NCBI GenBank assembly: GCA_003971905.1 | Contig: RSEE01000017.1 | Span: forward strand, 682,001 to 746,000 | Length of the DNA stretch: 64,000 nucleotides | From: Moniliella sp. 'wahieum' | Lineage: Eukaryota | Reading direction: 5' to 3' | Shown here: piece by piece, positions 3,186 through 51,765 of the stretch | How the letters are laid out: every line of letters starts with the position of its first letter | Numbering within the stretch: the stretch's first letter is position 1 | Program-made: the position numbers and the translations under genes | The notes under the pieces: generated by a model | What the model saw: only the letters and a program-made list of their open reading frames with translations | The model's database searches: none | What the model was told of the DNA's origin: nothing

Positions 3186-4437
3186 ATGCAGCTCTCAAGC
3201 ACATTTGTTGGCCTGGCCGTTGCCCTTGGCGCGGTACACGTCGCCGCCATCCCCTTCGGCCCGAACGGGGTCGATCACTGTGCCGCTCACCCGCCGGGCT
3301 GAGCGCAACTTCCGTCGTGCCGACGGATCGCTGGACGTGGCCAAGTTCAACCGCGAGCGCGCGCTGATTCGTGCCAAGTACGCGCGCACCCTGGCAAATT
3401 ACGAGCGCAACACCGTTCCAAGCACGCTCTTGCTACTGCCTCTGCCACTCGCCGCCGCAGTACCGGCACGGTCGACCTGACCGACATTGAGCAACAGTCC
3501 CTCTGGACCGGCGTCATTGGCTTTGGCTCGCCCGTGCAAGACATTCACATTGGTATGTTCCCCTTCCTCTCCCTCCGATTTCGATCTTGCTTTGCATCGG
3601 TCGGACACTCACCGTTCTTTTGTGGTTCTGGGGGGGGTCTAGATTTTGATACCGGCAGTTCCGACACGTTGGTGAACCAGGGCGCATACGACCCTGACTC
3701 GTCTTCCGACTCTTCCGACACGGGCACGACCTTCAGCGACTCTTACGGCGACGGTACCACGGCCTCGGGCGAAGTGTACTCGGACAAGCTCACGATCGGC
3801 GGTCTCACCGCCGACACCGCGTACATTGGCCTTGCAGACCAAACGTTCATTACGGGCGAAGGCAACAGCCAAGGCATCAGCGGTATGGCGTTCCCTAGCC
3901 TCAGCTCCTTCCAGCAACAGGAGCCTTACTTTCTCGTTGATCAATGCCGGTGTCTTGGACCACCAGGCGTTTATCTTTACCCTGGCTGAGGATGGTTCGA
4001 CCTTGACGTTGGGTGCGACTGATTCCAGTGCCGACTTTACCCCGGTCACCGACGCATCCTACTGGACTGTCGACGCTTCGGTAGAGGGTACCGATATCTC
4101 TGCCATCGTTGACACGGGCACGACCTTGATTGTGGCCCCCGTTAGTGATGCGGAGAGCTTGTACAACCAGCTCGGGCTCCAGTACTCTACCAGCGACGGC
4201 CAGGCCCAAGCGACGTTTGACTGTGACTCGCCGCCCTCGGTGAGCTTCAAATTTGGTTCCAAGACCATCACTTTGGGCGACTCGGTGTCAGCTGGTACCG
4301 ACTCGGACGGCAACTGTGTCTTCACCGTGGTAGGAGAAGACATGGGGATGGATTCGTGGATCGCTGGCGACTCCCTCATCGACTCGACTTCTAAGGTCAT
4401 CTTTGATGTGGCCAACCAGCAGGTGGGCTTTGCCTAA
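3186..4437 (+). CDS. Secreted pepsin-like aspartic protease (A1 family)
   Basis: Signal peptide MQLSSTFVGLAVALGAVHVAA, propeptide, catalytic motifs HIDFDTGSSD (formed across intron 3553-3642, GT..AG) and IVDTGTT, flap SYGDG, C-terminal WIAGD..FDVANQQVGFA. About 3 apparent frameshifts. Confidence 0.93.
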
Positions 4438-5773: not shown

Positions 5774-8700
5774 CTAGCCGGGGAAGTGATTTCCATCTCG
5801 GAAGCGGGTGAGCGCAAAGGCGCTGCGGGGGAGTACGGCGGCACGAACGCACTCGAACGCTCGTTGGGCCATCAGCAGTGCTTCCGTTGGTCCTTGCGAC
5901 GCTAAGGTCTGCAGTGCCGGAGCGATCTGGAGAGCAATCAAGTCCAAATCCCGTACCAATGGTGCCGGTGCGCGCGGGCCCGCATGCGAAAACAACTTGA
6001 TCACCAGCGCACATGCATTCGAAGCATAGTGCGGCGGCATTCGTGCGTCTCGTCGTGCCAAGACAGAGAGGAGCATGGTTAGCAAGCTGGGGTCGGTGGG
6101 TGGCTTGGTGGGAACAGAGGGTAAAGCCGCAGGACGAGTACGGGGGCTGACCTCTTCGGGGGGGAAGTACGAGCGAGCCTCGTCCCCTTCCGCCTGGCCT
6201 TGAGCCTCATCCCGTTCTGCCCCGGTAGGACTGCTGTTTGGGGCGGGGAGAAGGAACTGTCGGGGGACAAGCTGGCTCCCGTCCCAGCAGACATGGGGGA
6301 AGTATGTGCGTCAGGTGGAGCCGAGGGAGAAGGAGGATGAGCGACCAAGGCGGAGGCTACGCAGGCTGCACCAAATGGCGTGGTGGAGAGGAACCCCAAA
6401 GCGGTCAGACCTTCGTTGACCAAGACAGGGTACCGTGTAGAAGCACAGACCATGCTAGCCAGCGCATTGGTCACGGGCGCACACGCAATCGCCTCGCGGG
6501 CCGCCAACATGGTGCGGGCCAACTGGACGCCTTCGGCATTGTCTTCGCTCCGGGACGCAGATTCCAGTGCGGCTGCGTCAGGGAGGGGAATCAGGAACAA
6601 CGTTTGCACCACCACGCCCAGCACCCGTCCCGCTTCCAAACTGATCGGCGATGACGGTAAGCTGCTGGCCACTTGAGCCAGAGCATCGCGCGCCGGTCCC
6701 ATGGCAACACGCACCGAGTTGCCGGCTGCTCCTTGCGCTAGGTTCTTGAGTACCAAGACGGTGCGGAACAATAAATCGTTCGTCGTCACTGTCGTCCTCG
6801 TTCCGACGGTCGCAGGGGGGGGCATGCGCAGCACCCCGGCCGCCCTCTCCACCCAACCCAAGCTGCCCAGCATGCCCTTGTTGGCATTGGGAAGGGAAAG
6901 ATTGCGCATGGTCCCCATCAAGGTGGCGGATTGCTGAACCGATTGGCTCGCCCAGGTATGGTCAAAGATAGGCGCCAGCCGTTGGCCCAGTTGAAACTTG
7001 TGCACCAAGCTGATACAGTGCGGCTCGGTTCGAACCAAACTTCCCAAGGCCAACAACGCGACCGAGACGAGCTCACTCCGATTCTCGTCGGTGTCCGAGA
7101 GCCAAGAAAGAAGGAGATTGACGAGCCAGGTAGCAGAACCAGGACCTTCATGCGGTGCTCCCGTGCCCGATGGAGAGAAGAGCATGTCAATCGTTCGTTC
7201 CTCACTCAGCACAGCCAAGAAGCTCCGGACCAAGGCCGAGCGATACTGTTCAAACATCTCGTCTTCGCACCATGAACCGTCGCCCACCTCCTCTGACTCT
7301 CCCATCGATTCGTCCGAAACGGGGGCGGCAACAGACAAGATCCCCGTTCCCGCACTTTGGCGGAACAACTGCGGGGACGGCCGCGGGCTGGCGCGGAAAC
7401 GTGCCTCCTCTCTCCCCAAGCGCCATGCGGATGGAGGCGCACCCTGAGCCACAAAGGCGGCATACACCGCCATGGGGGTACGGTTGCGCAAGCCAGAGGG
7501 GTAGCGCACCGCATCGGCCCAGCTATCGGGAGCGACGGCAGCACGACGCCAGCGCTGCTATCGAGCGAGGAGGACTCAATGAGTTCCGCTGCGGCCGAAA
7601 GGATTTGCTCGTCGGCCGAGACGAGCATGCGCCGCTCGCTCACCCCCCACACTTCCTCCATCTTGCTTGGCTTGCTTGGCTTGCCACGTGGGTCGAGAAA
7701 TGCACGCAAGATGACGGCGGTGGAATTGATCGCCGTGTCGATGACAAGGGATTTGGCGTGCAACGGTACCCGACATGCTTCCACGCCTCCTCCTCCACCT
7801 CTTCCGCGACTAGAACGAGATCGGTGCCGGTGCGTAGGCCGGTGCCGCTCCGGCTCAGGCGAGGGTGAAGGCGGGCGGGCTGAACCGGATCGGGCAAGGG
7901 AGCAGAGGTGGATCCACGACTGCTGCCTGACAGACGGGCTCCTAGGCTAGCTGCACCGGGCGAAAGTTCGTCATCCGACAGGGGTGGGTCAGCAGGGGAA
8001 GCCAATACGTCCTGCAACACTTTCCAAGAGCGCGATGCAATGGTTGCGCCTGCCTGAACCAGCGCGCGCGCTCTCCTCGTCTGTAGTGAGCCCTCCCGCA
8101 TGAATCCGTACCCCCCCATCGTCCAAGAAAGGGGGGTATAAATCCGAGGGGACGATCCAAGGCGGAAGAGGGTACGGAGCGCCATAGGGTTCGATGCGAG
8201 GTACGCCTGGGTGGGGCTGTGGTCCAATTCGAGATTCTCAATGGCCCCCGTCGCAGCACGAAGGAGGTGCAAGGTAGTTGAATCAAACAAGACCAGCGTC
8301 GGGATGTCCGGTACTGGGTCGTTCAAAAACCCGTCCACGACGGCTAGGATAGCAGGTGCAGCATCCAGGTCCAGCAGCCGATCCCGGTTGACATCTGCAA
8401 AGTAAGGTCAGAGCTGGCTGCTTGGCCAAGGGAAGGAAAGTACGCACCGCAATCGACACATAGATTGCCCAGGACGCGCAGCTGGGTCTGGGCATCCTGG
8501 AGCGGTGCAAGATATTTAGACGAACGGGGGATGGTCGACAAGCGCAGCAGGGCTAGCACCTGCACTGGCATGTCCGACGAGCCAATGGCGATTCGCAACC
8601 GGTCTTGCCGTAGTACATCCGCCACAGGACGCAGGGTGCGAGCGACTGTATCCCACACTTCTTCTTCTTCGGACACTGCATCTGGGTCGGCACCGGGGGA

Positions 8701-9399
8701 CAACATGACCACCCTTCCTCAATGGCCATCATTGATGGAGGCACTTGATCGTCGTCCTTGGGCAGGTTCATCAGGAACGGCTGTGGTGCGCCTGGGTTGC
8801 GACGAGAACTGATACTGGAACGTGGGGTGGGCGAAGCAGGAAGGATCCTGAGGCCAGCGAGCTGACGCGGCGGACAGACAGAGACCCTGTGGGACGGGTG
8901 AGCATAATTTTGGGTCCCCAGCCTGGTCCAGGACCAGCTTGAGCAGGCACACCCAGTCCGGCTGCCGAGCCCCAGCCGAAGTCAAAGGCGGTGGGGCTAC
9001 CTGAGCGCTGGTACGAGTAGCCACGGCTGGGTTGGCGCGGGCGCGGGAGGCCGAGCATAAAGGATGGGGAGGAAGTGGTGGTGGAGGTGATGGGGGCCGG
9101 GGCGAGGTCGCCGACGGAGGCAGTGGAGGAAGCAGAGGACGAGGGCGGGAGGGAGGAGAGCAGCATTGACGGCTGTGCTGAGGAAGAGGGCGGCAAAGAG
9201 GCAGTGTGCACACTAGAAAAGGAGCCCGGGCGACGACGGTGGAGGCAGAGGCGTCGCTGAACGTGCCGGTGGATACGCCGCTGTCGGTGCTGATGGAGAA
9301 GTGGCGGCACAGCTGCTCGATGAGCAGCAACGCAGGACGTGCCTGCATCCAGACCGACTCGGGGTCGTCGTCGGCGAAGAGGTCGAAGGCCGCACTCAT
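5774..9399 (-). CDS. ARM-repeat protein, SmgDS/RAP1GDS1-like GTPase GDP-dissociation stimulator
   Basis: Stitched from several minus-strand ORFs: QLRVLGNLCVDC|DVNR (intron about 8394-8447), LLALGSLVR, MGTMRNLSLPNANK, VLVNEGLTAL. Low-complexity N-terminus from MSAAFDLF. Boundaries approximate; frameshifted. Confidence 0.65.
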
Positions 9400-12300
9400 C
9401 GGCCGGAGAGGAGGGGGGGCGGAGGTGGTGGTGGTGGTGTGTCGTCTGACCACGAGACGATCGACCAGCGACGGTCGAATGCCCCTTCCGCCGCAGCTCT
9501 CCCTGCATGCGGCGAGGGGTACAGCCAGTGCCGGTGGTGGGTGATGCATGCATGATGCATGATGGGCCGGATGTCCGCTCGTTGACCGCTGAGGTTAAGC
9601 GTTGATGCACTGATGCATGGTGTGCATGCATGATGCATGATGCCTGCTGACGCGCTGACGCTGACCTCATCGATCATCGATCCCTCTCACCGGCACTAGT
9701 TACCCAGTCGGTGAAGCCCCGAGGGGGATGTAATGCATGGCGTGTGACATGTGATGCATGATGCATGGGCGGCTCGCACCTCGCACAGCGCCAGTTTCGG
9801 CCCCAGCATCCGGCCCGGGAGCTGCACACTGCCCGTCTGCTGCGGACGGCGTTCCTGGAAGGACAGGGGCCACGTGCAACGCCGGTAAGGCGATGGCAGC
9901 GACGAGATCGGAGAGCATGCCGCGAGGTAGCCGGCGAGGCAGCCAGCGAGTATACGCTTGCGCTAGTATATGCGGGTAGGCGCGGGCAATACGCCGGCCT
10001 GTCGCATTCCTTCGCAGCGCATGCAGCATTATGCACCGCTTCCCTGTGTGAGAATGGGAGTGGCCGTCCAAGCCAGGCCAGCACAAGCCAGGCCAGCACT
10101 GCCAGGGCCCATGCGCCTTTGCTCGGAGCACCCCAGCTGTCAGCAAGAAGAGCACGGGGCCAGTGCAGGGCCCGGCGTCCGTCGGGCTGGGCGGCGCGGT
10201 GGCCAGCACAGGCCAGCACACCAACCGCTCGACTCCGATCTTTGTTTGCGGTGCACCAGCCCTGCACCGCAGCACCCCAGCACACCGCAGCACCCGCCCA
10301 GTGTACACAGCCGGCGCCTGTTTCAGCACACGCGGCCCACAACCTCCCGCCGCTGGCCACTAGCCGCCACTAGCCACTGCCGGCGCCTGGGATCTGAGAC
10401 CAAGCAGGGACAAAGGCTGGACGGTTGTGGCCTCAGGCCTCAGGCCTCAGGCTGAGGTAAGCAGAAACATGTTATGCATTACATAGGAAGCGCCGAGTAA
10501 GCGCAGCGCGCTGAGCTCAGCCGTTGGCATTGTTTGCTAACGTGTTCCTCAGCACCTCGCATGCATCATGCACCGTGCCATTACTTGCATGGCTTCCTGC
10601 CCTGCCGCATTCTGAGAAATCGCGTGGGAACGCTGGCTGTCTCAGGCGAGCGTTGCACTGCGATTAGAAGCGCTATAATTTGAGCGCATGCGAAATAGCG
10701 CAGCAGGGTGGAGGTGCTGTGCTGTTTTGCATTCGCCTATTCACAAAAAATATTCACGTGCCACACCCGACATTAGTATTACACCACTTCGGCCCATCCA
10801 CTCAGTACGTCAGTACCGTCAGTACTCCTCTTCAGGGCCTCAGGACAGGGCCGCAGTACTGTGCGACTCAGTACTCAGTACCCATTACCCGGCCGTAGTG
10901 CGCAGGGTCCAGCTGACCTTTTGCATACTGCATGCCGCCACCAACAGCAACAACAGCAACTAGCAACCGCTAGAACCCCAGGCCAGCCCCCCTAGCATTC
11001 ACCACAGCATTATAACCCTCAGCCTCCAGCCACAGGTCATATATCGATCGTAGCTCATCGATTATCCATTATCGAACGAGATTACTCTATGACAGACGTC
11101 TGAGATTCTGAGATCAAAGATCGACGAGCGCTCAGGCCTCAGGCTGAGTCTCTTCTTGGCTGACATATTTTTGACCTTTCGTGTGTCTCTGTGTCGAGGG
11201 TGCGAGGGTCCTCGATTCTCGCCAGCCACTCGCTGTTTTATACGCGGCACGAAGATCATCCGCACTCTACAGTCAGTCCATCCCTATTCTCAAGTCACAA
11301 AACACGTTTTCAATTCGCTCGTACATCTCAGAGATCTTGATCTCTGGCCTGAGCCTCAGGTCTCATCGACATGAATCACATCAAGATCGTCCAACAGTGC
11401 AATCTTAATTGCATGTGGTGATGATTGAAACACGAAGGCTTTTGTGGGGAAAGAGACGCAAAGGTTGTTACTAACTGCAACGGCAAAACGGCGATGAGCG
11501 TTACCTCCGTATTTCTTCATCGACGGATCGTTTCCTTCCTCTTCCTATACCCAGCGCGATAGTACATGTTACCGAATGACTAAGCTCGCTCCAATTTCCA
11601 ATTCTGCATCCTGTGTGTCTCGCACTTCCCTTTCCTTTTGCTTCTGTTCTCTGACGGATGTCTTCTGTTTCCTCCCACGAACGATTTTGCATTTCCCCCC
11701 GCCTCTGACAGGGCCTTAGTCTCCCTCATCGTTTAGTCCCGACTGTTACACTATAATAGTCCGACCGTGCGGCGCCTTCGAGGACCATCAGGCCAAGACA
11801 CCTGGTCTCATCTGTTAGAGGGTACTGCTAGGGTTCTCCTGCACGGCCCTCAATGGATCGGTGACGTTCGCCTAGCCGCGAGCGGAAGCGTTCCGCTCGC
11901 AGGCCGCGCACGCCCTGCTCGCTCCATCTCCCTTCTCTCTCTCCTTTCTCCTTCCCTTCAGACGTTGCTTGAAGACTTTTGTGCTCACCACTTTGCCTTC
12001 ACGCCTTGTCTGAAGGCTGCTTTGCAGCTGATCCATAGGATCGCGAGTGCTCCCAAGTCGCACTCTAGCATCATCGACATCAATAATCGCATTTTGGACA
12101 AGAAAATAGCCTCTAGCTTTAGAAGACCATGCCTCGGCCGCTCAAAAATGTTTTGATGGTGGAGCAGCAAGCAAAAGCAATTACGATGGTGACCCTACGG
12201 AATCTCCGCTTCAAGCTTGAAGCTTCACATGACCCGTGACGCGTGACCGGTGACCGGTGACCGCCACACGTCATGATTGTGCGCGGAATGGCAACTAAAG

Positions 12301-12426
12301 TTCCGTTCCGCCCCGCTCTTTGTCGGGGTTAAGTGTTTCTCGCAAGCATTGATGCCATTGATGCAATTAATGCTTGACGTGCTTCTTTCCACCACCACCA
12401 GGCGCTGCAGTACGGATACGAGGGCC

Positions 12427-12836
12427 ATGGCGGCAAAGCAAGTGGAGCAGCTGATTGCCCAGAACCGGGTATTTGTGTTTTCCAAGTCATTCTGTCCCTA
12501 CTGTACCGCCAGCAAACGTACGTCCTCCCCTCCGCGTTCCACTCGCTCCAACAGTCGGCACACAAAACGCGCGTATATATTGATTGGCCGTGACCGAGCT
12601 AACCCCGTATTAGCTTGCTCAACAAGTTCAACGTGGCGCCCTCCCCGCTCGGTGTGTTGGAGCTGGACCAACTGGGATCGAAGGGGGCTGAGATCCAGAC
12701 CTATTTGGCTTCCAAGACGGGCCAGCGCACCGTGCCCAATATCTTTATCAATGGCAAGCATGTGGGCGGCAACTCCGACTTGCAAGTGCTCGCTTCTGAT
12801 GGGCGACTGAAGGAGTTGCTCTCCCTTGAACGTTGA
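12427..12836 (+). CDS. Dithiol glutaredoxin
   Basis: [12 protein letters not shown] active site, [22 protein letters not shown]; intron about 12518-12613. Confidence 0.95.
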
Positions 12837-13452
12837 ACGTACTGAACCGTGTCCCACTATTTTCGTAGCTCCGTGTTACATGTGGGTCACAATATCCTCC
12901 GCGGCTGGGAAGATACACTTTGCCTGCTGACGGTTTTGTTGGTCTAACGGGACTATAGTCTGTGTTTGGAATGAGCCACTTGACTTCGGCCTCCGCTGGG
13001 GGGTGAGCTGTGTTTGCCGCTATGGATGCGGGTTACGGAAGGGCTTCGGCAAGCATGGAAATGAGAGTGACCACTGCAATGCTCACATGGCCTGGATCGC
13101 ATGACCCTGGGCGCTGGCGATGGTATCACATTCATGAACAGGGGAAGTTCGGACGAACGTTGCTGGTGCTGGGGCATCTTGAAGCTTCAAGAACTACATA
13201 CCACTGCCACGGTGATGGATGTCACATTGTCACATGTCACAAGCCGGAACAATGAAAGGAAGACATCCGTTAGGGCCAAGAAAAGGAAAGAGGGACACGA
13301 GCTGAAGAGCTCCACTTAAATTACATTGCCCAGTGGCATGGCTGTACATTCAACAGGGGGTTGGAAGGAGTCTGGGAGTCATTCGACGGCAGCGAGACGG
13401 ACGGTCATACCCGCTCACGTAGGATGCGGCGTTTCCGGGTACACCGTGATAT

Positions 13453-14239
13453 TCACCTTGGGAGCACGTCGACGTATAATAAGAGTTCAGGGCAGTCCTC
13501 GTCAATGATACCCTTGTAAGGCAGAATCACCTTAACCAAACATTGCTTATTAGCGTAGCATGGTGATAATGCGGACCTTACAATCGGTGACCAAGGCCAC
13601 GTCTCTGATAAACGCCGTCCAGTCGTGGATACTGTTCCACCTGTTCGCCACTTCATTCGAGTACCCATTCTGGCTCAAGTATCGGCAGAAGTTCTCTCTG
13701 ATCACGTCGTACTTGGTCGGGCCCAATGTTCGGGCGTCCATTATGACAAATCTCATGACTTGGAAGATATTCTCGGACTGATAAGCGTCCCGACCCCATT
13801 CTAAGGATTTCAGACGGGAGTCGATCTCACTTTCAGGATTGTAAGCAAGCAGGAGCCCACGTTTCATGTTGTCCCAACAGAGCGCACAGGGATAGACGCA
13901 GGTACTGTGGGCAATGTCAGTGGGCTCCCCGGAAAGGGCCCTACAACCGAAGTAATAACTTGTCACCGACCGAGGGGAGACTTGTTCGATATCTAGGAAT
14001 CTCTCGATTTTCTCGAAGAGAACAGGTAGCGTCAAAGGATCGTGGTCCCATTTTTGAATGTGGGCGTACTTGAGACGTTGAAGTGCGTCATAGTCCGGCT
14101 TGGAAAGGTTTTCTGCCTCTTGGACAGCTTGGGAGACCTCCTGTGGGAAATGGATAGAGTCGTAGGGAGACCAAGCCACGGCTTGCGTTGGTTCCGGCAG
14201 CGCGGAGTTGGGGGCCGTGGGGGCGTTCGAGGCGTCCAT
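13453..14239 (-). CDS. Hypothetical protein with a retrotransposon Gag capsid-like pattern; putative 46-nt intron at 13531-13576
   Basis: Uninterrupted ORF from MDASNAPT. Residue spacing resembles Ty3/gypsy Gag CA (IQKWDHDP..KIERFL..ALSGEP..WDNMKRGLLLAYNP..LKSL..FCRYL). A GT..GCTAAT..AG intron joins in frame to VILPYKG..LPR*. Confidence 0.55.
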
Positions 14240-14859
14240 CTCAAAGACAAGTGGAGCGAGGTAGGGCACGAAGCGAGGCAAAAAGGGGTAGCGAAATATA
14301 TGCTCGAGGACTTGACGGATTGGAGGGTGTGTAACCCACGAAGCAATCACCTTGGCTAACAGGAGAGGGAGATGGGGGACAGGATGAGGATGATATTCAT
14401 CGAATGGAAAGAGGGCGAGGTATATATACCTCAGAGAAGAGAGACATGTGAGCTCAATCACACGGAGGAAGAGGAAGAGGAGCATAGTCAAAGAGGGAAA
14501 ACAGGGTCTAGAGCAAATCACAGAGACCAGTCAACTTGGGTGATCAAACGGTGATCAAGTGGGTCTGATCCCGACATTGGCGGGTATTGGCTCAAGAATC
14601 AGGTCGAGCGAGAGAAAACGGGAGGGAAGCGGTGATGGCGAGATAAAGGAAACGAACGTGAGAGAGAATGAAGGATTAGATCTTAGCGGGGCCCGTGCCC
14701 ATAACAGAGCTGAAAATGAAAATGGCGATGTCACATGTCACATGTCACATGCCGGCAGCGTGAAACATTTCAGGAGGGCTGCTCCACCACGTCACTACCC
14801 ACTTCAACGTTGAAGGTTGTCTTGGCCACTGCGTGTCTGCTTCTTCTTGCGCGACGACG

Positions 14860-16414
14860 ATGAGCACGTACCGCGAAGCCAAGGAGGGTCCGTCACTAAC
14901 CTGACTGGCGGGTCGCTCCTCCAGATCGCATCCAGTCTCGTCCCCTGGGCTGGTGCGGTCCTTCTCAAAGCGGGCCAGGTTCAGCACGGTTCTGTCCCTT
15001 GGCCACTGCGGCTCGCCGCGCAATGGGCGGTGCTGGTCCTGCCGCCCTTGGCGGCGTGCACAGTGTGGTCGCAACCAAAGGAAGCCGGGGTGTTGACAGC
15101 CGTCTTGCTTTTTGGTGCGCTTTTGCTCTTCTACCGTGCACGCACCTTGGGCTCGTCTTCGTCTTCGTCTTCGCTTCCTCCTCCTGTCCGAGCCCGACCC
15201 ACCCGGTTCCTCACCATCTACCGCGCCCATATGATGCTCATGACCGTCCTCTGCATCCTGGCGGTTGACTTTCCCATCTTCCCTCGCTCCTTGGCCAAAA
15301 CAGAGAACTTTGGGATGAGCATGATGGACCTGGGCGTGGGTTCGTTCGTATTTAGCTGGGGCTTGGTCTCGGCGCGCCCTTTGCTTTCACCGCTTTACAT
15401 CCACAACCAAACCACTGGCCTCACCTCCCTTTCGCCGCGTACACTAACCTGTGGCGCAAGACGCTCTCCAAAACGTGGCCGCTTGTTGTGCTTGCACTGG
15501 TTCGCGTGGCGGCAGTCAAGGGCGTGGCCTACCCGGAGCATATGGGCGAGTACGGGGTACACTGGAACTTCTTTGCGACACTGGCGCTGGTGCCGTTGTT
15601 GGCTACGGTGACTGCGTATCTACGCCCCTCGGGCGCAGCATCGTCTTGCTCTCCCTCGCCCTCTTGGGTGCACACGAGGCCATTCTGTCCTCGTGGGTGG
15701 GGAATGGGCACTTGCCGCCTTGCCCAACAGGGTGGCCGACGGCCTGCCTTTGCTCACCCAGAACAAAGAAGGCCTTGTATCGTTGGTAGGCTACGTCTCC
15801 ATCTTCCTTTTGGGTGTGCATGCTGGTTTGGCCGCGTTCTCCCGGGCCCACGACGTGGATTGAGTCTACTGGCGTTCGGATACGCTTTGGCCTTCTGGGT
15901 TGTCACACAGCGGAGCCATCGCCGTATGCGGCAAACCACATCCCCCTACAGCAGGATGGGGCGTCAGTCGTCGTCTGGCCAACGCAGGCTACGTCAGCTT
16001 GGTCGCTGCATACAACACGATGGTTTTGGCACTGTATGCGACGACGCAGGCTTCTATGGAGGCGGGCGTGGTGGGTACGCAGACCAGGAAACCAGTTTGC
16101 CCACCGCCCCGCCGGCTGTTTCAGCCGACCTGCTCGACGCTCTCAACCGACACGCATGCCAGCCTTCTTACTGGTACGTTATTCCTCCTCGAGACCTCAA
16201 TGGTGCAACACGGTGAACAGCTCCTGCTGTATGCTTGCTAACCTTGTTTTTTTGTTTCTAGGCCAACCTGCTCACCGGCGCAATCAACTTGCTCATGCAA
16301 ACGTGGTACCAGCCCCCCCATATCGCTTTCGGTGTCCTGGCCCTGTACTCACTTGTTGTCACTGGGGCGCCGTACGTGTGGGAGATGGTTTCGCCCAAAA
16401 CGCACGCCAACTAA
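14860..16414 (+). CDS. GWT1: GPI inositol acyltransferase (Gwt1/PIG-W)
   Basis: [96 protein letters not shown]; intron about 16174-16261; frameshifts. Confidence 0.95.
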
Positions 16415-16834
16415 AAACAAATGTGTATACTAGATCCCGGCAGGATGTGCCGTGGGCAATGCAATTGCATGTTCCCTCATGGAGAGGGGAGTGGACTCGA
16501 GGGAAGGATGCGAATAGAGATGGAAACAGGTCATGAGTCGGAGGGAGTGGTGGGATCCGTATGTCTATTACTTAGACAAGAGTTCAGTTGGACGAATTCT
16601 GGCGGGCTTTTGAATCTGCCCAACACACAGGGTGGAACGACCTAGGTATGATAAGAACTTAATGCACGAAGGTTTGCTTCGAGACACTTGTTTGGGAGTA
16701 AAGACTGGTTGATTGGCGAGGGGAGGAGGGGAATGCAAAAAGATAGTAGTGGAAAAAATAGATAGAAAACAAATTGAAGGGGTGCGTGGTGGAGAAAAGG
16801 AATGAAATGGAATGGAATCGAATGGGTGGGATTC

Positions 16835-17995
16835 TCAGAGTAGCTGAGGAGCAACAGACCAGCTGCCGTTCATAGCCATCTGTTCTCTCCCTCGTGATCC
16901 AATTGGAACATTACGAGTTGTTGACCCAAAGTCAAACAGAGGTGTGGGCGCGCCAGCACTAGTAGCCAAGCGCGAGTTTTCGTTAATGTGATTTGCAACA
17001 GTGGGGCATAAAAGGCCACGCCTTTGACCCACTCGGTCTTTTGCGCCCATTGGTTAACCTCTTGCACAAAGTGGAACGCGGTGCCCAAGTCTGGCGCGGC
17101 CTGACCACCGTAGTTCATGCACCCAATCTCAGTGATCACCACGTCCTTTTCAGGGAACGTGCTGTGCCACTGCTCGAGATACGCAATTGCATTTTCCGGC
17201 TCCGTGCCATAGTAGTGTAACGAATGCGCATCAATCGCCTCGTAAGCGTCGGGGCACTGGACTTGAACTCTTGCACACGAGATGGAATCTGGCGCGCCGT
17301 TAGTCGATGGACCAATGATCGTCCACCCGTCCTCCTTGAGAGGGAGGAGGTACTGGCGGAAAGCACCACAGGCATCTGCTTGCTTCATGTCTGCTTGGCC
17401 TACTTGATTCACCTCATTGAACGCCATTGCCACCTTGGCCTTATTCTGCTGGGCATCGCGGTCGTTGAGCACGTACTGCTCCCACGCGGCCACGCGGTCA
17501 GGCTGGTTGCTCCACAACATGGGCCAGAATTGGATGTTGTCAGGAACAAAGTTAGGCGCCGTCGGCTGGCCCTGGGTGGGACTGACGTCCCACGAGTAGA
17601 GCCATCCCATGGACTGGGTAAAAAGATCAACATTGAGCCACTTGCCAACTGCCCAGCTGAGCCCATTCTTGGCCATGGTCAATTTACTCCCGCGGCCGGC
17701 ACCAGCAAGGTGATTCTGGTCCGTGCTGTTGTGCGCATGTGTTGCGGCCGGGGAGGAATGGGAGACTGAAGCAGTTGGGTGGCTGGTGGATTGGTGCCGG
17801 TGATGGCGGTGGTGGGTGTGGTGGTGGGTGTGGTGGGTGTGGTGATGGGGACGGTGCGAGTGGTGCCGACGCACCATCCGTGCGATCTGGGAGGGGTGTG
17901 GATCGAGGGAAGCTCCGTCACGCCCGGCAGAGTGTGGCCCACACGGCGGCTGAACCAGCAGCGGCGGTGGCCAGGAGGAAGCGGAGGAGGTGCAT
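16835..17995 (-). CDS. Secreted GH128 (Asl1-like) beta-1,3-glucanase with His-rich linker
   Basis: Signal-like MHLLRFLLATAAAGSAA; motifs WLYSW, FWPMLW, AFNEVNQ, LHYY, ITEIG, WVKGVAFY are typical of GH128. Confidence 0.8.
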
Positions 17996-20482
17996 GGGGC
18001 TGGAGAGCTGGGGGAGGGATGTGGGGCGTGGGGATGGGGGCTTGCCAGAAGCGTTGGATGAAAGGGGAGACGGCCGGCGTCGTGGAGGGGAGAGAGAGAA
18101 GTGGAGGTGGGGGAACGAAGCGGGAATGGGTGGCAGGCGAGGCGGTATTTATCCCCCCGCCGGTTCGGCCGCGTGGCGAGGAGGAGGCCGGAGAGGAGAA
18201 GCAGAGCCTGCAGTGGTATAGGACACATAGGACACATAGGACGACGTATAGGACGCATGGCCAGCGTGGTGCGGCCGCAGAGACACAGCAGCGGTGTGTG
18301 GCGCCCTGCTGCCGGCACTGCCCCACTGCTGGGGGCGACGGCATGTGCGGCAGCAGCTCGCAGGCACGGGGCAGTGCAGCGGCAGCGCAGAGCAGACATG
18401 CGTGCTGCGCCAGGCCTCCACGCGGCTGGACTGGGTGATGCATGTGACAGGTGTGACGAAGCCGTGATGGCCTGCACCTCGTTACAGTACGTGTCACGTG
18501 CTACGAGTTGCTCGATGCGGGCTGCTCGTTCCTAGGAAACGCACAATGCCGCTCGAGCAACAGGTGCCTGCCGGTGCTCGCTCACGCACTGCACCCCCCA
18601 TGCAGCCCTTTTCTCCACATGCGCACCACAGGCAGCCTTGTGTGGGTACACCGGCTCTGCGTCATGGGTAGAAAGCACACGCACTCACTCGTGGCGCTTC
18701 AGCTCTCGTCTTGTGCGCACGCATCTTCTGGACGGGACTAGGCCCTCTAGCGCCCATAGCCCGTCCTCCCTCTTCGGCTGGAACAACCACCTGTTGCCAA
18801 TAGCGGTGGACGGCACTACCTCGTGTTCCAGTCCAATCAACAGGGTGGTCGCCGGCACATTATACCCACTCGCCCCCGACTTTTTCTCTTTCAAAAGGGA
18901 GAGAGACAAAAATATATGGGCTGGTCGATTGAACGTGCACACACGTTTATCAACCGCATTGCTGTTCTCATCATTCATCAGCAAGCCAACACCCAGCCGG
19001 ACCAAGTGCCACACTCCACCTCGCCCAACGTTGGTCGGAACGGATAGGAGAAGTGTTGATGTGCCCCTCTGCAGGTCTGGGTGGGACATGTCTGCTTCAT
19101 TGCGAAATTTGCACCACACCTGTTCTTTCTATACTAACTGTGCCCCTATTGGCCGCTGCGGTACTACTTGCACATAATCGCTTTTCCCTTCCAACCCTCA
19201 GCCAAACGTGGTACGCGCCCTCTGTACTACGCATACAAAAGGCGATCAATTCCCCAACCGATAGACAAGGGGGGGGGGGGGGGTAGGCTTACTACTAATA
19301 GCAATCAGTAGTGTAACGCCGTGGGAGTTTGGATATAGGAGCGAGAATATATAGGTAGGAGGGGGGCGCACTGAGGCAGGCAGGGCGTTCAAGCTTGCTT
19401 TCACGCCCTGGGCAATCTAAAAGAGGTCATCACTCAAGTCCTCAAGCACATAACAGCTCAAGATCAAATGCGACACTGAATGTTTGACGTCTCCTTCGTC
19501 CAAAGCTACCGAGAGTAGTTCGAAGTGGTACTCTAGAATGAGAAGAGAGGCCGATAGTGGTGAGCACGGCAGTCTATTGGGAAGACATGGGGAAATGTGC
19601 AGCTCGACCAGTGCAACGATCATCAAACGGTGTAATTGACCACCACAGTAGCGGCAGAAGCAGCAGGGGATTGGCAATCCTCCGTCACTGCCAAGCCCGA
19701 GAGGCTGCTTTTGATGGTTATTGCCCTTCTTTTTTGAACGCGCTCCTGTCCTCACCTTACTTTTCTCGTGTTCATTTCTGTCTTGCGCTCCTTGGACGAG
19801 AGGACAACAATGATCTGCCATCACCTGTGCAAAGCATTACCGCGGTATCACTCACCGCCGGTGCGAGGGAGGCAACTGATAGGTCCAAGTCGGACGGTGG
19901 TTCACGGTTGTGCGCCGGCAGCATCTGCCGGCAGGCCGTGGTGCGGTCATGCCAACGTTTCCAGAAGAAACTGAGGAAGAGAGAGGGCATGATGGACACC
20001 GAGACAAAGTGCAAGCCCAAGCGCTAGTGTAGAATGGGGTGGACCGGAGCTTGGTGGTTGGGCTTCGACAGAGACCAGACGGATGGACGCGGAACAGGCT
20101 AAGACGCAGCGGTAATCCGCCGGCCGCTGTCGGTGGTGAAGCCATACTAGCCAGTATTCAGTCTTTACTACTACAACTACTATTACTACTGCTACTACTA
20201 GTATAGGTCCAGCCCATGCCAGCCTACAGCAGTTCGAGACGGTTTGAGGCCGAGAACACATGGAATTCGCACATGCCAAGGGACTCGACAGCAGGTGAGC
20301 GTCTAGCACTTGACGCTAGCCGACACCCACACAGAGTAGATCAGGCAACAAAGCACTGTCTAAGGTTTTGACCAACAGGAGCTCCGAGGCGTGTCACATG
20401 CCACCCCAGTACGCCCCAAGCAACCGTTGGAGGCAAGAACGGATTGAAACAAGCCAGCTGCTCCTGCCCCTGGACGACGTAC

Positions 20483-37483: not shown

Positions 37484-40400
37484 ACTGGGACGGGATTGGA
37501 GTGCGTTCGAGAGGTGAAGGAGCAGAAAGGCCAGAAGAAGGGTGGTGATCTTGTCTAAGCCAGTTTATCCATGCAGCGATCCCTGATTTATATATGTTTG
37601 GTTCCGTCGTCTTTCCGGTCTTCGGTCCTATCCTCTGCCGGTAGGCGTGCCCTACTATGGTGAACGTTGGATACTCTCTACTGTCCAAGGCACGGGCGCA
37701 ATGGGCGGGGCGGATCAGGCCTCAAGCTTCAAGCGTCAAGAAAGAACCACTGGTGCGTCAAACGGTGGGAGAGCAGGTCCGGCAACAGTCGTTGCGGCTG
37801 CGGAGATGGGCGTCGCATCCTCCCCTCTTGATGAATCATTAATCCATTAATCATGAGCCAATGAACCAGTATAATCGATCATCATTAATCATTAATCAGA
37901 CCTCTCGGACCCTGAAGGAGGACTTGGCACTTTACGATGCTCGCACCGGGTGTGACGACCGACGACCAAGAACCTCGGTGGCAACTGTCTTTCGTGGCAT
38001 CCAAGAAGTAAAGATCTGCGACTGGGTGCTGCAGGATGCCGCCCGGCATCGCATCTTCAAGCTTCAAGCAGCATCAGATGTCACAGCTTCAAGCTTCCCA
38101 CCCTCTGCGCCACCACCCATGTGTTCCCTCGGGTCTCAGCCATCGTCGATCGGTGAGCGCCAAGCCAAATACCCCACAAATACTGTCTTAGCGGGCTCTA
38201 CCCGATCTTACGCTCCCCCAAAGCCCAGTGATGCAAGTCTTGGCGTTTTGCCCGCCCCGGCTGCGGAAGAATGGCCAGCAGACACGGGTGACCTGTGAGT
38301 ACTCAGACTGAGTACCGAGTACCGAGTGGTGACCCCACAGCGACGAATACAGTCGTGGCAAGTGACAAGTGACTAGTGACATGCGGTAGGGGACCAATAG
38401 TCAAGCTGACTTCGGAGGGCGTCCGTGTCCGAGGCCTCCTCGGACCTCCCCAGGCCGCCCCAGGCCCCAGGCCTTTTCCTCGCCGGCTTCAAGCTTTCCT
38501 GCGCGGCGTAACTAGGTTAACTAGGTCCCGCGCGCGTATTTCCATCTTCCCTGATTAACGGTTAATGTGATTAATGATTTCACGGGCACGTGCAAGTCTA
38601 CTTAGTAGAGTAGGACGTTGGGCAGCTTGTAGTGTGTGTGAGTATACACTGTATGGAGTCTACCGAGGTAGCTGCACCTGACGCGTTCCTGGGGCTGTCA
38701 CATATCAGGCATCATGTATCACAGACGGGCACACTCCCTTCTGAGATCTGAGTGCGCCTTGCGCCCAGTCTGGGGGGTATAGTTATCACGTAACATGTAA
38801 CATCGATAATGCCTAAGGCGACTTGTGTGTGGGGCTCGATGCGAAGCTGCGTAGACCTGTGTAGAGTCTGATCCGCGGCGTTTGCGCAGAGCTGAGACGT
38901 GTGACGTCGTTGTGCCTGAAAAGGCGTTCGGCATCTCGCGGACGGAAGAAGAGGTAGCGCGGTAGCGAGGAACACACATAGCCCCTGAGTCTGAGGCCTG
39001 ACTGCGATTGGAGCAGCAACCGGGACGGAAGCTGCGCTGTGACATGCATGACATGTATTAACATGTGACATGTGGCGTGTGACCAGGGACTGTTGCCAGA
39101 AGCTTTGAGGCTGATGCACTGATGAATGATGAAGCTTTTGAAGTATCGGAGAGGGAGTACTCAGTCTCAGTACTGATGGTACTGATGCATGGCGGTACGC
39201 AAGAGCTCCCCAGTGACTGGGGGGTCGGAAAGCCGGGACCCGATATCGGATATCGGCGGAGAGCTATCAGCTGATATCTTTGCCAGCTGATCAATGGTCC
39301 TGCTTTTGTGGATTGAATATCGACTATCGACTGAAGAGGTGGAGACCTGTTACATGTTACGTTGCCACTGATGCCCCGACTGGTCGCCGACCGCGACCGC
39401 TCTCGTTAGACGGAGATGACGCATGACATAACGTACTAGAGGGACAAGGTCCGACACAACACAAGGTCAGTCCGTCTTTGCTGTGAGGGTTAATAGGGCG
39501 TTATATAATAGGTTCGCCCTGTGTGGTGAGAGCCTGGTGGATATAGTGCACGTGTCCTAGTATAGAGTTTTGGTGTTTTACCAGTCCCCCGGGGTTCTTG
39601 AGAGGTACCTGTGTTCTTCTACATTCCACTCACTCCTGCTCCGGCCTCACCCGTCCATCTATCACCCAGAGCTAGCAGCCGATTGCACTGCCCACGCCGT
39701 GTTTTTACGGGCAAACAGCAAACAATGAGACTAGTTACTAGTTCTTCTGTGCGCCGGCCCAAACCCAAACTGGTGGTTGCAGTTAAGAAGTCTTCGGTAC
39801 GGTCCCATCGTGACCAACTGGTGGCCGCAATCTGATCGCACCTACGGCCTCCTGGTTTTGAGTACTGAGTCCGGATGAAATGCTAGTCAACTGAGCACTA
39901 GGACTGAGGCCAGAGGGAGAGTGGACGATGGTCGAAGTATATCGAGTGCAAGGTGCGTCATTGGTTATGCATGAGGGAGACGCTATACTACTACGGACCC
40001 CATTCTCCCCCGTCTGACACCTTATGGCATTTTCATTCGTCATTCGTCATTCCTCATTGTTACGGGCTGCGGCGGACCCGAGATGGTCCGACCCAAGCTA
40101 AGGCCCGCCTGCTCCGCACATGCCCAGTAGAGCGTGCTCCGCAGGCCAACCAAGTGCGATGATGGTTGGCTAAATTATAGGTACCGTGGTCCGAACAAGG
40201 GTCATGCATCCGCACGACAATAGTCGCCCCCTGCCCAAATCCAAGTCGGCTGGCCTAAATATACGGCCACCGAGCTTCCAGTGTCGTTGCGACGGCTGTC
40301 GCCCCGTCCCCGTTTCCTTTTTCTTTCTCTCGGTCGCGCCTGCGGCGACCAACCCCGCTTTTGAAGTGTCTTCCTTTCTACATCCCCTCTTGTATCCGTT

Positions 40401-50796: not shown

Positions 50797-51765
50797 GGTG
50801 GGGGTGGGGGGCATGGAGATGGGGGTGGATGGTTGCGGATGGGATGGGATGGGATTTGATGCATTTGATGAGCGACTGAGCCTGGGCTGCCTGTGATCGA
50901 GCGGATCGTCTCACTAATAAGCGGATGACCGATGATGGATATGGCGATGGATGACATGGATGGCGCCGCAGGCTGCTTGACGTAATTGCTGTCTCATGGC
51001 CGTGCTCGATGCACGGTGGGTAACAGAAGCGGCCATATCGCTGGACCAGCGGGGCCTTTGAGCCTTTCCAGACTAGACGCGTTATAAGGCGTGTTGGGGG
51101 ATGCTGCTGCAGATGGCAGATCAGGCCCATGGGCCATCCATGTATTGCTCACTCGGGACTCTTGACCATCCTCGATTGGGAACCATTCATCCTCAGGCCC
51201 TCAGGCCCTCAGGCCTCATTGACTTGATCAGGTCCATGAGCGCATGAGCGCATGAGCATTCGACGGACTGCTGGCATCACTTCCTGATCACATTGGGACG
51301 TCATGCATCATGATCATGCTCATGCTCCGGCTGGTCGGCAAGCTCTCTGACATTGCAACGGTGGCAAGGCGGAGGCTCCATCGTTCCAGCAGCTATGGTG
51401 CCTCCAAGGTGAGATCGGAAAGGGTGAAGGTTTTCGGTGGCTACGTAACGCGTAACAGCCATGTGGACGATGCGTGACATGTGACATGTGATGCATGATG
51501 CAGATCAAGCGCCTGCGCCCCCTGCAGGATGAACGTTTGACACTTGCCAGGCACAGGTACAGGGCGAGTGAAGACGCGTGCTGAAGTAATCCGCGCTCCG
51601 CTTGTGCTCGCGTTCTGGCGGGGGAGGGAGCAAGTCGGGTAGCCGCACCAGGGCGGGTGGTGCCATCGCCAGGGCCAGAGTCACTAGTCACTAGTCTGGC
51701 AAGTGCCATCGCCACCCCACCCCCTCCCATCCCCCCCTTGCGCCGTTTCCAACACAGCGGCCACC

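What the first reader, a model, noticed from the sequence alone, without database searches (positions are those of the whole stretch)
13453..14239. Stand-alone, intron-bearing Gag capsid-like gene: candidate domesticated retrotransposon capsid
Seen: a clean ORF of about 230-245 aa between glutaredoxin and GWT1, divergent from GWT1, with a plausible 46-nt intron. No protease, RT, integrase, CCHC knuckle or obvious LTR pair is visible nearby. Established: Ty3/gypsy Gag CA domains show a pattern like P.F.GD...W...E.F...L.G.A....W...K..L...F.P....L..L.....F..GL, and domesticated gags such as Arc, PEG10 and PNMA can form capsids. Inference: HIQKWDHDP-LFEKIERFL-ALSGEP-WDNMKRGLLLAYNP-RLKSL-FCRYL fits this spacing, so the gene may be a co-opted fungal capsid acting in retroelement restriction or RNA packaging. 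The match is by eye only.
Basis: partly seen in the sequence, partly recalled or inferred. Interest (0 to 1): 0.75.

Follow-up and report, generated by a model that had tools for sequence, protein, structure and literature searches.

The report
Orphan fungal gene, possibly Gag-derived
A real but relative-less fungal gene between glutaredoxin and GWT1 encodes a small helical protein whose only detectable resemblance, seen by a protein language model alone, is to retrotransposon capsid (Gag) proteins, so the capsid idea is plausible but unproven.

Summary
A minus-strand ORF (ATG 14239, stop 13453) lies between glutaredoxin and GWT1, divergent from GWT1. Its stop-free frame is longer than chance gives, and its codon usage is host-like. 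It has no LTRs, pol domains or zinc knuckle nearby.

The 46-nt intron has proper signals but is unverified. Neighbouring conserved genes show homopolymer-type frameshifts, so an assembly indel could mimic the intron.

The Gag reading has one soft line of support. The ESM Atlas places the whole protein (top score 0.95; 22 of 30 nearest clusters carry Retrotrans_gag) and its C-terminal 132 residues (20 of 30) among Gag clusters.

Nothing else confirms it:
- no Pfam or PDB sequence match;
- no homologue among 1.84 billion proteins;
- no profile similarity to a genuine fungal chromovirus Gag family;
- AlphaFold models too poor to compare.

A control weakens those negatives. That genuine Gag family is itself nearly invisible to Pfam and PDB outside its zinc knuckle.

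No relatives, whole genome or RNA data were available, so copy number, synteny, selection and expression are untested.

Verdict: a real orphan gene, about 45% likely Gag-derived. Co-option and any capsid or restriction function remain inference.

The parts
13577..14239 (-). Exon 1 (or the whole conserved core): ATG at 14239, 221 codons. The product is predicted all-helical (about 10 helices) and acidic.
   Evidence: Translation. Codon usage is the best of six frames. ORF length exceeded all 2000 simulations. Helices. ESM Atlas Gag-type neighbours.
13531..13576 (-). Putative 46-nt intron (GTCCGC ... GCTAAT ... AAG). It is unverified. It could instead hide a one-base assembly error, or be read through to a stop at 13550.
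   Evidence: Signals found.
13453..13530 (-). Putative exon 2: 25 codons plus TGA, giving an acidic C-terminal tail.
   Evidence: Translation. Codon log-odds are +0.361 over 25 codons. pI 4.1.
14240..14859 (.). Divergent promoter region of about 620 bp shared with GWT1. It holds TATATATA at 14421-14428 (182-189 nt upstream of the ATG) and one upstream ATG at 14400.
   Evidence: The promoter role is inferred, not tested.
13219..13257 (+). Left copy of a 30-nt direct repeat built of GTCACAT heptamers, lying 3' of the gene.
14727..14765 (+). Right copy of the same repeat (83% identical, spacing 1508 nt), lying in the promoter region. Together the two copies bracket the whole transcription unit.

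Best explanation
This is a real protein-coding gene of a poorly sampled fungus. Its product, about 229-262 aa depending on how the 3' end is read, is an acidic, all-helical protein. It is most likely a very divergent descendant of an LTR-retrotransposon Gag capsid (CA) domain.

The gene stands alone, without nucleocapsid zinc knuckle, protease, RT, integrase or LTRs. It has host-like codon usage and sits in a compact housekeeping neighbourhood. That picture fits an old, host-fixed (co-opted) copy better than a recent element.

What is shown: the gene is real, it stands alone, and it resembles Gag in learned sequence features.

What is inferred: descent from Gag and a CA-like fold. A further inference is that the protein self-associates. 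Lacking any RNA-binding module, it would then more probably interfere with assembly of retrotransposon particles, as Ty1 p22 or Fv1 do, than package RNA.
For: The gene is real.
- Its 326-codon stop-free frame was reached by none of 2000 simulations.
- Its frame has the only positive codon log-odds of six, within the range of Pfam-backed genes.
- Its Atlas recognition score is 2829. The tool states that 91 in 100 known-family proteins reach 2300, against 9 in 100 shuffled ones.

It resembles Gag in learned features.
- The first Atlas hit is a Retrotrans_gag cluster at 0.95. The tool states that shuffled or reversed proteins reach 0.95 once in 100.
- Of the 30 nearest clusters, 22 list PF03732. 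The rest are 4 unannotated clusters, 3 DUF7041 clusters and Fv1 at 0.89.
- Residues 90-221 alone give 20 of 30 PF03732 clusters, plus a caulimovirus coat cluster and 8 unannotated, mostly basidiomycete, clusters.
- The helix-loop spacing predicted for 112-216 fits the recalled Retrotrans_gag pattern.

It stands alone. There are no pol, CCHC or gag domains in 9500-19000 or in the window's other long ORFs. There is no LTR-size repeat. It has a single copy in the window.

The negative searches carry little weight. A genuine fungal chromovirus Gag family sits upstream of a PR-less RT-RNaseH-IN-chromodomain pol in L052. Only 1 of its 18 members touches Retrotrans_gag, at E=0.02. Its profile hits PDB only through the zinc knuckle.
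Against: - No Pfam family matches at E<=10, and none matches the full stop-to-stop ORF.
- No PDB sequence matches at E<=10.
- No homologue was found among 1,835,955,588 representative proteins.
- hhalign against the 18-member fungal Gag alignment gave probability 0.24%.
- Unfiltered hmmsearch with that profile gave -2.5 bits. Of the 720 shuffles that got a score (out of 1000 made), 173 scored at least as high.
- BLASTP against two element Gags found nothing.
- The Atlas hit shares only 139 of 256 features. The tool says 9 in 10 true family members share 170 or more, while low counts are typical of chance hits or distant relatives. It also says a third of shuffled proteins get ten same-family neighbours.
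- The two Atlas calls are one method, not two.
- The AlphaFold models are unreliable (pLDDT 43.9 and 39.7).
- There is no evidence of conservation, selection or expression.
- Gene GC (about 0.51) is nearer to intergenic DNA than to neighbouring genes (0.55-0.62).
Confidence: 0.45

Rival explanations
1. The gene encodes a lineage-restricted, fast-evolving helical host protein with no relation to Gag. On this view the language-model neighbours are a false lead, because diverse Gag clusters act as an attractor for orphan helical proteins.
For: - Every alignment-based test is silent.
- The shared-feature counts are low: 139 for the whole protein, and 117-144 for the C-terminal part.
- The organism has no close relative in the databases. 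The neighbouring glycosyl hydrolase finds one hit, at 54% identity. GWT1 finds only distant metagenome loci. Orphan status is therefore expected for any fast-evolving gene.
Against: - By the tool's own calibration, a first Atlas hit of 0.95 is rare for non-proteins.
- No non-Gag named family appears among the 30 nearest clusters down to 0.89.
- The result survives removal of the first 89 residues.
- The control shows that true fungal Gags are equally silent in Pfam and PDB.
Confidence: 0.4
2. The gene is a Gag-only relic, or one copy of a non-autonomous, multi-copy element, with no host function. On this view the 30-nt direct repeats that bracket the 1.5-kb unit are traces of its insertion.
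For: - Direct repeats at 13228-13257 and 14736-14765 (83% identical) enclose the gene and its promoter.
- These two copies share GATG and GCCGG flanks that the motif's other sites lack.
- GC inside the unit is lower than in the flanking genes.
Against: - The repeat is only 30 nt long and is built of a heptamer that recurs elsewhere in the window: 9 matches against 0.37 expected (sites shown).
- Similarity ends at the motif.
- There is no second copy in 64 kb.
- No related DNA was found in the metagenome or viral collections.
- The ORF is intact and its codon usage is host-like.
Confidence: 0.1
3. This is not a gene but a chance open frame in a 2-kb intergenic region.
For: - There is no homologue and no expression evidence.
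- GC is close to intergenic values.
- This GC-rich window has many long spurious frames overlapping real genes.
Against: - None of 2000 simulations reached the frame length.
- The codon log-odds are positive in this frame only.
- The Atlas recognition score is in the range of real proteins.
- No gene on the opposite strand could explain the frame.
Confidence: 0.03

Closest known systems
Co-opted fungal gag genes Crtg12, Crtg13 and Crtg14 (Wang and Han 2021, PMC8321522; read here: abstract, passages found by term, sections 9 and 13)
   Same: These are stand-alone, single-copy gag-derived genes in fungal genomes without pol or LTRs. Crtg14 has a putative GT-AG intron in its gag-derived region.
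   Different: Those genes were found because they match Pfam Gag-clan HMMs at E<=0.1, and they were validated by synteny across families, selection and RNA-seq. This gene matches no Pfam HMM, so that screen would miss it. None of the validating criteria could be tested here.
Gag-derived restriction factors: Ty1 p22 in budding yeast and Fv1 in mouse. For the Ty1 review PMC13709905 I saw only the search listing and the start of the abstract; the mechanisms are recalled.
   Same: These are Gag or CA fragments without enzymatic domains that act by interfering with capsid assembly or function. An Fv1 cluster is among the 30 nearest Atlas clusters, at 0.89.
   Different: p22 is encoded inside the Ty1 element itself, and Fv1 derives from an ERV-L gag of mammals. 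No element related to this gene was found, and no interaction was tested.
Capsid-forming domesticated Gags of animals: Arc, PEG10, PNMA (recalled)
   Same: The proposed CA-like helical core and the stand-alone host-gene status.
   Different: Those proteins have confirmed CA folds and assemblies. PEG10 keeps a zinc knuckle that binds RNA. This protein is acidic (pI 5.0) and has no zinc knuckle or basic tail. Its fold is unknown.
Fungal chromovirus (Ty3/gypsy) Gag, represented by L052 ORF1 and its 18-member family A1
   Same: A helical CA region that Pfam does not recognise. The local pattern W-x2-[LM]-K-x2-[LM]-L ... P/S-E looks similar by eye.
   Different: No measurable profile similarity. 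In A1, 17 of 18 members have a CCHC knuckle, and the L052 copy sits upstream of pol.

Membership tests
Pfam Retrotrans_gag (PF03732) and other Gag-clan families | Significant match to the family HMM | tested here: not met
   No families at E<=10 for the 221-aa product. None at E<=0.01 for the 326-aa stop-to-stop frame. HMMER's filters hide matches weaker than about E 0.1-0.25. In the control, only 1 of 18 genuine fungal Gags touches PF03732, at E=0.02.
Retroelement capsid (CA) fold | Two-lobed all-alpha CA fold that superposes on solved capsids | tested here: inconclusive
Retroelement Gag (any superfamily) | Resemblance in learned sequence features (supporting, not defining) | tested here: met
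   Whole protein: first Atlas hit at 0.95, with 22 of 30 nearest clusters listing PF03732. Residues 90-221: 20 of 30. Shared-feature counts are low (139; 117-144).
LTR retrotransposon (autonomous or non-autonomous copy) | Flanking LTR pair with target-site duplication; pol domains or many copies | tested here: not met
   The only repeat pair in 8000-20000 is 30 nt long. No pol domains were found. There is a single copy in the window. Genome-wide copy number is not testable, because no genome is held.
Gag with nucleocapsid | CCHC zinc knuckle or basic RNA-binding tail | tested here: not met
   No zf-CCHC match. No C-x2-C-x4-H-x4-C pattern, and pI 5.0.
Co-opted gag gene in the sense of Wang and Han 2021 | Shared synteny or host-congruent phylogeny across at least two families, plus evidence of selection | not testable with these tools
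   No relatives were found. The 32 distant GWT1 loci from metagenomes show no homologue and no shared neighbours.
Fungal chromovirus Gag family A1 | Profile similarity | tested here: not met
   hhalign probability 0.24%. hmmsearch --max gave -2.5 bits, and 173 of the 720 scored shuffles did as well or better.
Capsid-forming domesticated Gag (Arc, PEG10, PNMA type) | Self-assembly into particles | not testable with these tools
   This needs recombinant protein and electron microscopy.

The most novel reading that the evidence does not exclude
An ancient Gag capsid domain, diverged beyond the reach of HMMs, has been fixed as a single-copy host gene between glutaredoxin and GWT1 in an under-sampled fungal lineage. 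Stripped of its RNA-binding part, it works as a capsid-assembly poison that restrains LTR retrotransposons, as a chromosomal counterpart of Ty1 p22 or Fv1. This would imply that HMM-based surveys substantially undercount fungal Gag co-options.
Probability: 0.15. Interest if true: 0.7.

Novelty: new member of a known kind. Interest (0 to 1): 0.4.

Why it matters
Only three Gag co-options are on record for fungi (PMC8321522), and all were found with Pfam HMMs. This gene, if Gag-derived, would be a case those screens cannot see. The control here shows that even genuine fungal Gag proteins are nearly invisible to Pfam outside the zinc knuckle. Domesticated capsid genes in fungi may therefore be under-counted, and language-model or structure-based screens may be needed.

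If the resemblance is false, the finding is an ordinary orphan gene. It then serves as a caution against trusting a single embedding-based hit.

Tried and rejected
- RNA evidence. The look-up of sequencing runs on 12200-16500 listed no RNA holder, so the splice junction and expression could not be examined and read laying was not used.
- Whole genome. None is held, so copy number is untested.
- Relatives of the protein. Four searches found nothing: the word-index search (96 candidates, none at E<=0.001, lengths 121-387 only), exhaustive phmmer, a metagenome scan (226 pattern matches, none confirmed) and a viral-contig scan (3 pattern matches, none confirmed).
- Synteny route. I fetched 32 metagenome loci encoding GWT1 relatives. 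tblastn with the protein found nothing (best E 0.48). Neither glutaredoxin nor the glycosyl hydrolase is present in them. They are too distant to inform.
- Structure. Single-sequence AlphaFold was run on the whole protein and on residues 90-221. Both models were low-confidence. The VIA-align wide search on the first gave only generic helical repeats, which I regard as meaningless.
- Self-association. Complex prediction with two copies of residues 30-221 returned 'no answer'. That is neither support nor evidence against.
- A Retrotrans_gag profile of my own.
  - An RT-motif scan of IMG/VR gave 81 stretches. By record length most look like complete genomes of about 7-8 kb; I take them to be plant pararetroviruses, but only L036 was checked by Pfam.
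  - Of 7 metagenome-derived loci inspected for ORFs, I scanned 8 ORFs from 4 of them.
  - L052 and L017 are chromoviruses, L034 is another LTR element and L036 is caulimovirus-like.
  - L052's Gag gave the 18-member family A1, which itself lacks PF03732.
  - A search for more elements with L052's RT found only L052 itself.
  - The genome search with PF03732 could reach only 1 of the 5 records asked for, and found nothing there.
  - So no PF03732-positive alignment could be built, and the Pfam HMM could not be run without its filters.
- The flanking 30-nt repeats as LTR or target-site remnants. I rejected this because the similarity stops at the heptamer motif and the motif recurs elsewhere.
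- tRNA and Rfam scans around the gene found nothing.
- Earlier findings of this scan held nothing relevant.
- A second literature search gave nothing useful. I read no supplement of PMC8321522, so I could not compare this protein with the Crtg sequences.

Full report
What is there. On the minus strand an ATG at 14237-14239 opens a frame that runs 221 codons to 13577. A 46-nt stretch follows (13576-13531) that begins GTCCGC, contains GCTAAT and ends AAG. The frame then continues for 25 codons to TGA at 13455-13453. Spliced, the product is 246 aa. Unspliced, it stops at 13550 after 229 aa. The left neighbour is a glutaredoxin gene on the + strand (Pfam PF00462, 12603-12833). The right neighbour is GWT1 on the + strand (PF06423, from about 14860), so the gene is divergent from GWT1 across about 620 bp.

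Is it a gene? The stop-free frame (13553-14530, 326 codons) is longer than any frame in 2000 first-order Markov simulations of the 2,023-bp gap between the neighbours (maximum 287, 95th percentile 196). I trained a codon table on 17 Pfam-backed segments of the window (6,066 nt). It gives +0.161 bits per codon in the proposed frame and negative values in the other five. Left-out real segments score -0.014 to +0.474. GC1/2/3 are .53/.42/.65 against .60/.46/.71. The ESM Atlas 'recognition' value is 2829, in the range of real proteins. TATATATA sits 182-189 nt upstream of the ATG, with one upstream ATG between them. I conclude that the gene is real. Its GC (about 0.51) is lower than that of the neighbouring genes (0.55-0.62).

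The intron. The signals are acceptable when compared with the one intron I could place with confidence. That is the glutaredoxin intron (GTACGT ... GCTAAC ... TAG, 96 nt). Exon 2 has good codon usage (+0.361 over only 25 codons). Three things keep the intron unproven:
- A 51-nt alternative with a better donor (GTAAGG at 13581) exists and would give a different short tail.
- No RNA run was listed.
- The assembly shows one-base frame breaks at homopolymers in conserved genes. The only ATG near the start of GWT1 (14860) is out of frame by one base with the Pfam-matched frame that begins at 14889, across a GGG run. An aspartic protease changes frame within about 4 nt at a TTT run near 3930, with no room for an intron.

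Because 46 = 3n+1, a single-base error would mimic the intron. The first 219 or so residues are unaffected by this uncertainty.

Stand-alone status. None of 88 stop-to-stop segments of 60 aa or more in 9500-19000 matches a protease, RT, RNase H, integrase, zinc-knuckle or gag family. They match only glutaredoxin, GWT1 and a glycosyl hydrolase. None of 82 further ORFs of 150 aa or more elsewhere in the window matches such a family either. The protein has no CCHC pattern and is acidic (pI 5.0). tblastn finds no second copy in the 64 kb. In 8000-20000 the only repeat is a 30-nt direct pair (13228-13257 and 14736-14765, 83% identical) that brackets the transcription unit. That pair is built of GTCACAT heptamers. 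The motif GTCACATGTCAC, allowing one mismatch, occurs 9 times in the window against 0.37 expected. Similarity between the copies ends at the motif. It is not an LTR, and I leave it unexplained.

Is it Gag? Alignment-based methods see nothing:
- Pfam gives no family at E<=10.
- PDB sequences give none at E<=10.
- The word-index search gives none of 96 candidates.
- Exhaustive phmmer over 1,835,955,588 representatives gives none at E<=0.001.
- The metagenome and viral DNA scans give nothing.

AlphaFold without an alignment gives all-helical but unreliable models (pLDDT 43.9 and 39.7). A fold search with the first returns only generic helical repeats.

The one positive result is the ESM Atlas feature search. 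For the whole protein the first hit is a cluster with 71% Retrotrans_gag members, at 0.95. Of the 30 nearest clusters, 22 list PF03732, some together with Ty3_capsid, DUF4939 or DUF1759. The others are 4 unannotated clusters, 3 DUF7041 clusters and Fv1 at 0.89. For residues 90-221 alone, 20 of 30 list PF03732. The two best hits are unannotated, mostly basidiomycete, clusters at 0.94, and a caulimovirus coat cluster appears at 0.90.

The tool's own calibration cuts both ways. Shuffled proteins reach 0.95 once in 100. But only 139 of 256 features are shared, which is typical of chance hits or distant relatives rather than ordinary family members. A third of shuffled proteins also get ten same-family neighbours.

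A control for the negatives. I fished LTR elements out of IMG/VR with a reverse-transcriptase motif. L052 is a chromovirus. Its ORF2 has RT, RNase H, integrase and a chromodomain, and its ORF1 is a 425-aa Gag with a zinc knuckle. ORF1 has 18 fungal relatives, aligned as A1. In this genuine Gag family, 17 of 18 members match zf-CCHC but only 1 of 18 touches Retrotrans_gag, at E=0.02. The family profile hits PDB entries only through the knuckle region. The silence of Pfam and PDB on our protein is therefore weak evidence against a Gag origin.

Our protein also shows no similarity to that family. hhalign gives probability 0.24%. Unfiltered hmmsearch gives -2.5 bits, and 173 of the 720 shuffles that got a score (out of 1000 made) scored at least as high. 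BLASTP finds nothing. Gag families of different element lineages generally do not align with each other (recalled), so this excludes only that lineage.

Why there are no relatives. The neighbouring glycosyl hydrolase finds a single database protein, at 54% identity. The best GWT1 relatives in metagenomes are 35-77% identical over short segments and share no neighbours. The organism is a fungus by gene content and short CTAAC-type introns (inference). It has no close sequenced relative within reach of these tools. Orphan status therefore says little, and synteny, copy number and selection cannot be tested.

Weighing the evidence. I put about 45% on a divergent Gag/CA-derived gene and about 40% on an unrelated lineage-specific helical protein. 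A functionless Gag relic or non-autonomous element copy gets about 10%, and a chance ORF a few per cent. If the gene is Gag-derived, several features favour a host-fixed copy: host-like codon usage, an intact frame, the absence of LTRs and the compact housekeeping setting. The lack of any nucleic-acid-binding module then favours interference with capsid assembly over RNA packaging. All of this is inference.

Comparison with what is known. Three fungal Gag co-options (Crtg12-14) were described by Wang and Han 2021 (PMC8321522; abstract, passages found by term, and sections 9 and 13 read). They were found with Pfam Gag-clan HMMs at E<=0.1 and validated by synteny, selection and RNA-seq. Crtg14 has a putative intron in its gag part. 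The present gene would be a further member of that kind, one that their screen could not detect. I cannot file it as a member of PF03732, because the HMM test was run and not met. I cannot file it as a co-opted gag by their criteria, because those criteria are untestable here.

Noticed in passing
window 13219-13250, 14727-14760, 9744-9770, 38362-38385, 39040-39085, 51474-51500: There are clusters of a GTCACAT / ATGTGAC heptamer, often in tandem and sometimes followed by TGCATG. GTCACATGTCAC with up to one mismatch occurs 9 times against 0.37 expected. Two of the clusters bracket the gene studied here. They could be a transcription-factor site or a short genome-specific repeat; the function is unknown.
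   Followed up: partly
window 14860-14892: The only ATG near the start of GWT1 (14860) is one base out of frame with the Pfam-matched GWT1 frame that begins at 14889. The break lies at a GGG run (14886-14888). This is probably a homopolymer error in the assembly rather than a broken essential gene.
   Followed up: partly
window 3920-3940: An aspartic protease (PF00026) changes reading frame between profile positions 126 and 128 within about 4 nt, at a TTT run, with no room for an intron. This is a second likely assembly indel, or a pseudogene.
   Followed up: partly
window 17794-17871 (minus strand): The glycosyl hydrolase (PF11790) next to GWT1 carries a histidine-rich run (26 residues, mostly H with T, R and S) in a long low-complexity N-terminal region.
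   Followed up: no
L052:1185-6187: An IMG/VR contig of 7.1 kb is an apparently complete fungal-type chromovirus (Gag with CCHC; RT, RNase H, integrase, chromodomain). The capsid part of its Gag family (18 members, from Didymella, Alternaria and unnamed sources) is essentially invisible to Pfam Retrotrans_gag, with 1 of 18 members matching at E=0.02.
   Followed up: yes
window 13400-14400: The gene has about 51% GC, close to intergenic DNA. Its neighbours have 55-62%, and its GC3 is 0.65 against 0.71 in Pfam-backed genes. This is a mild compositional oddity that could reflect foreign or element origin, or low expression.
   Followed up: no
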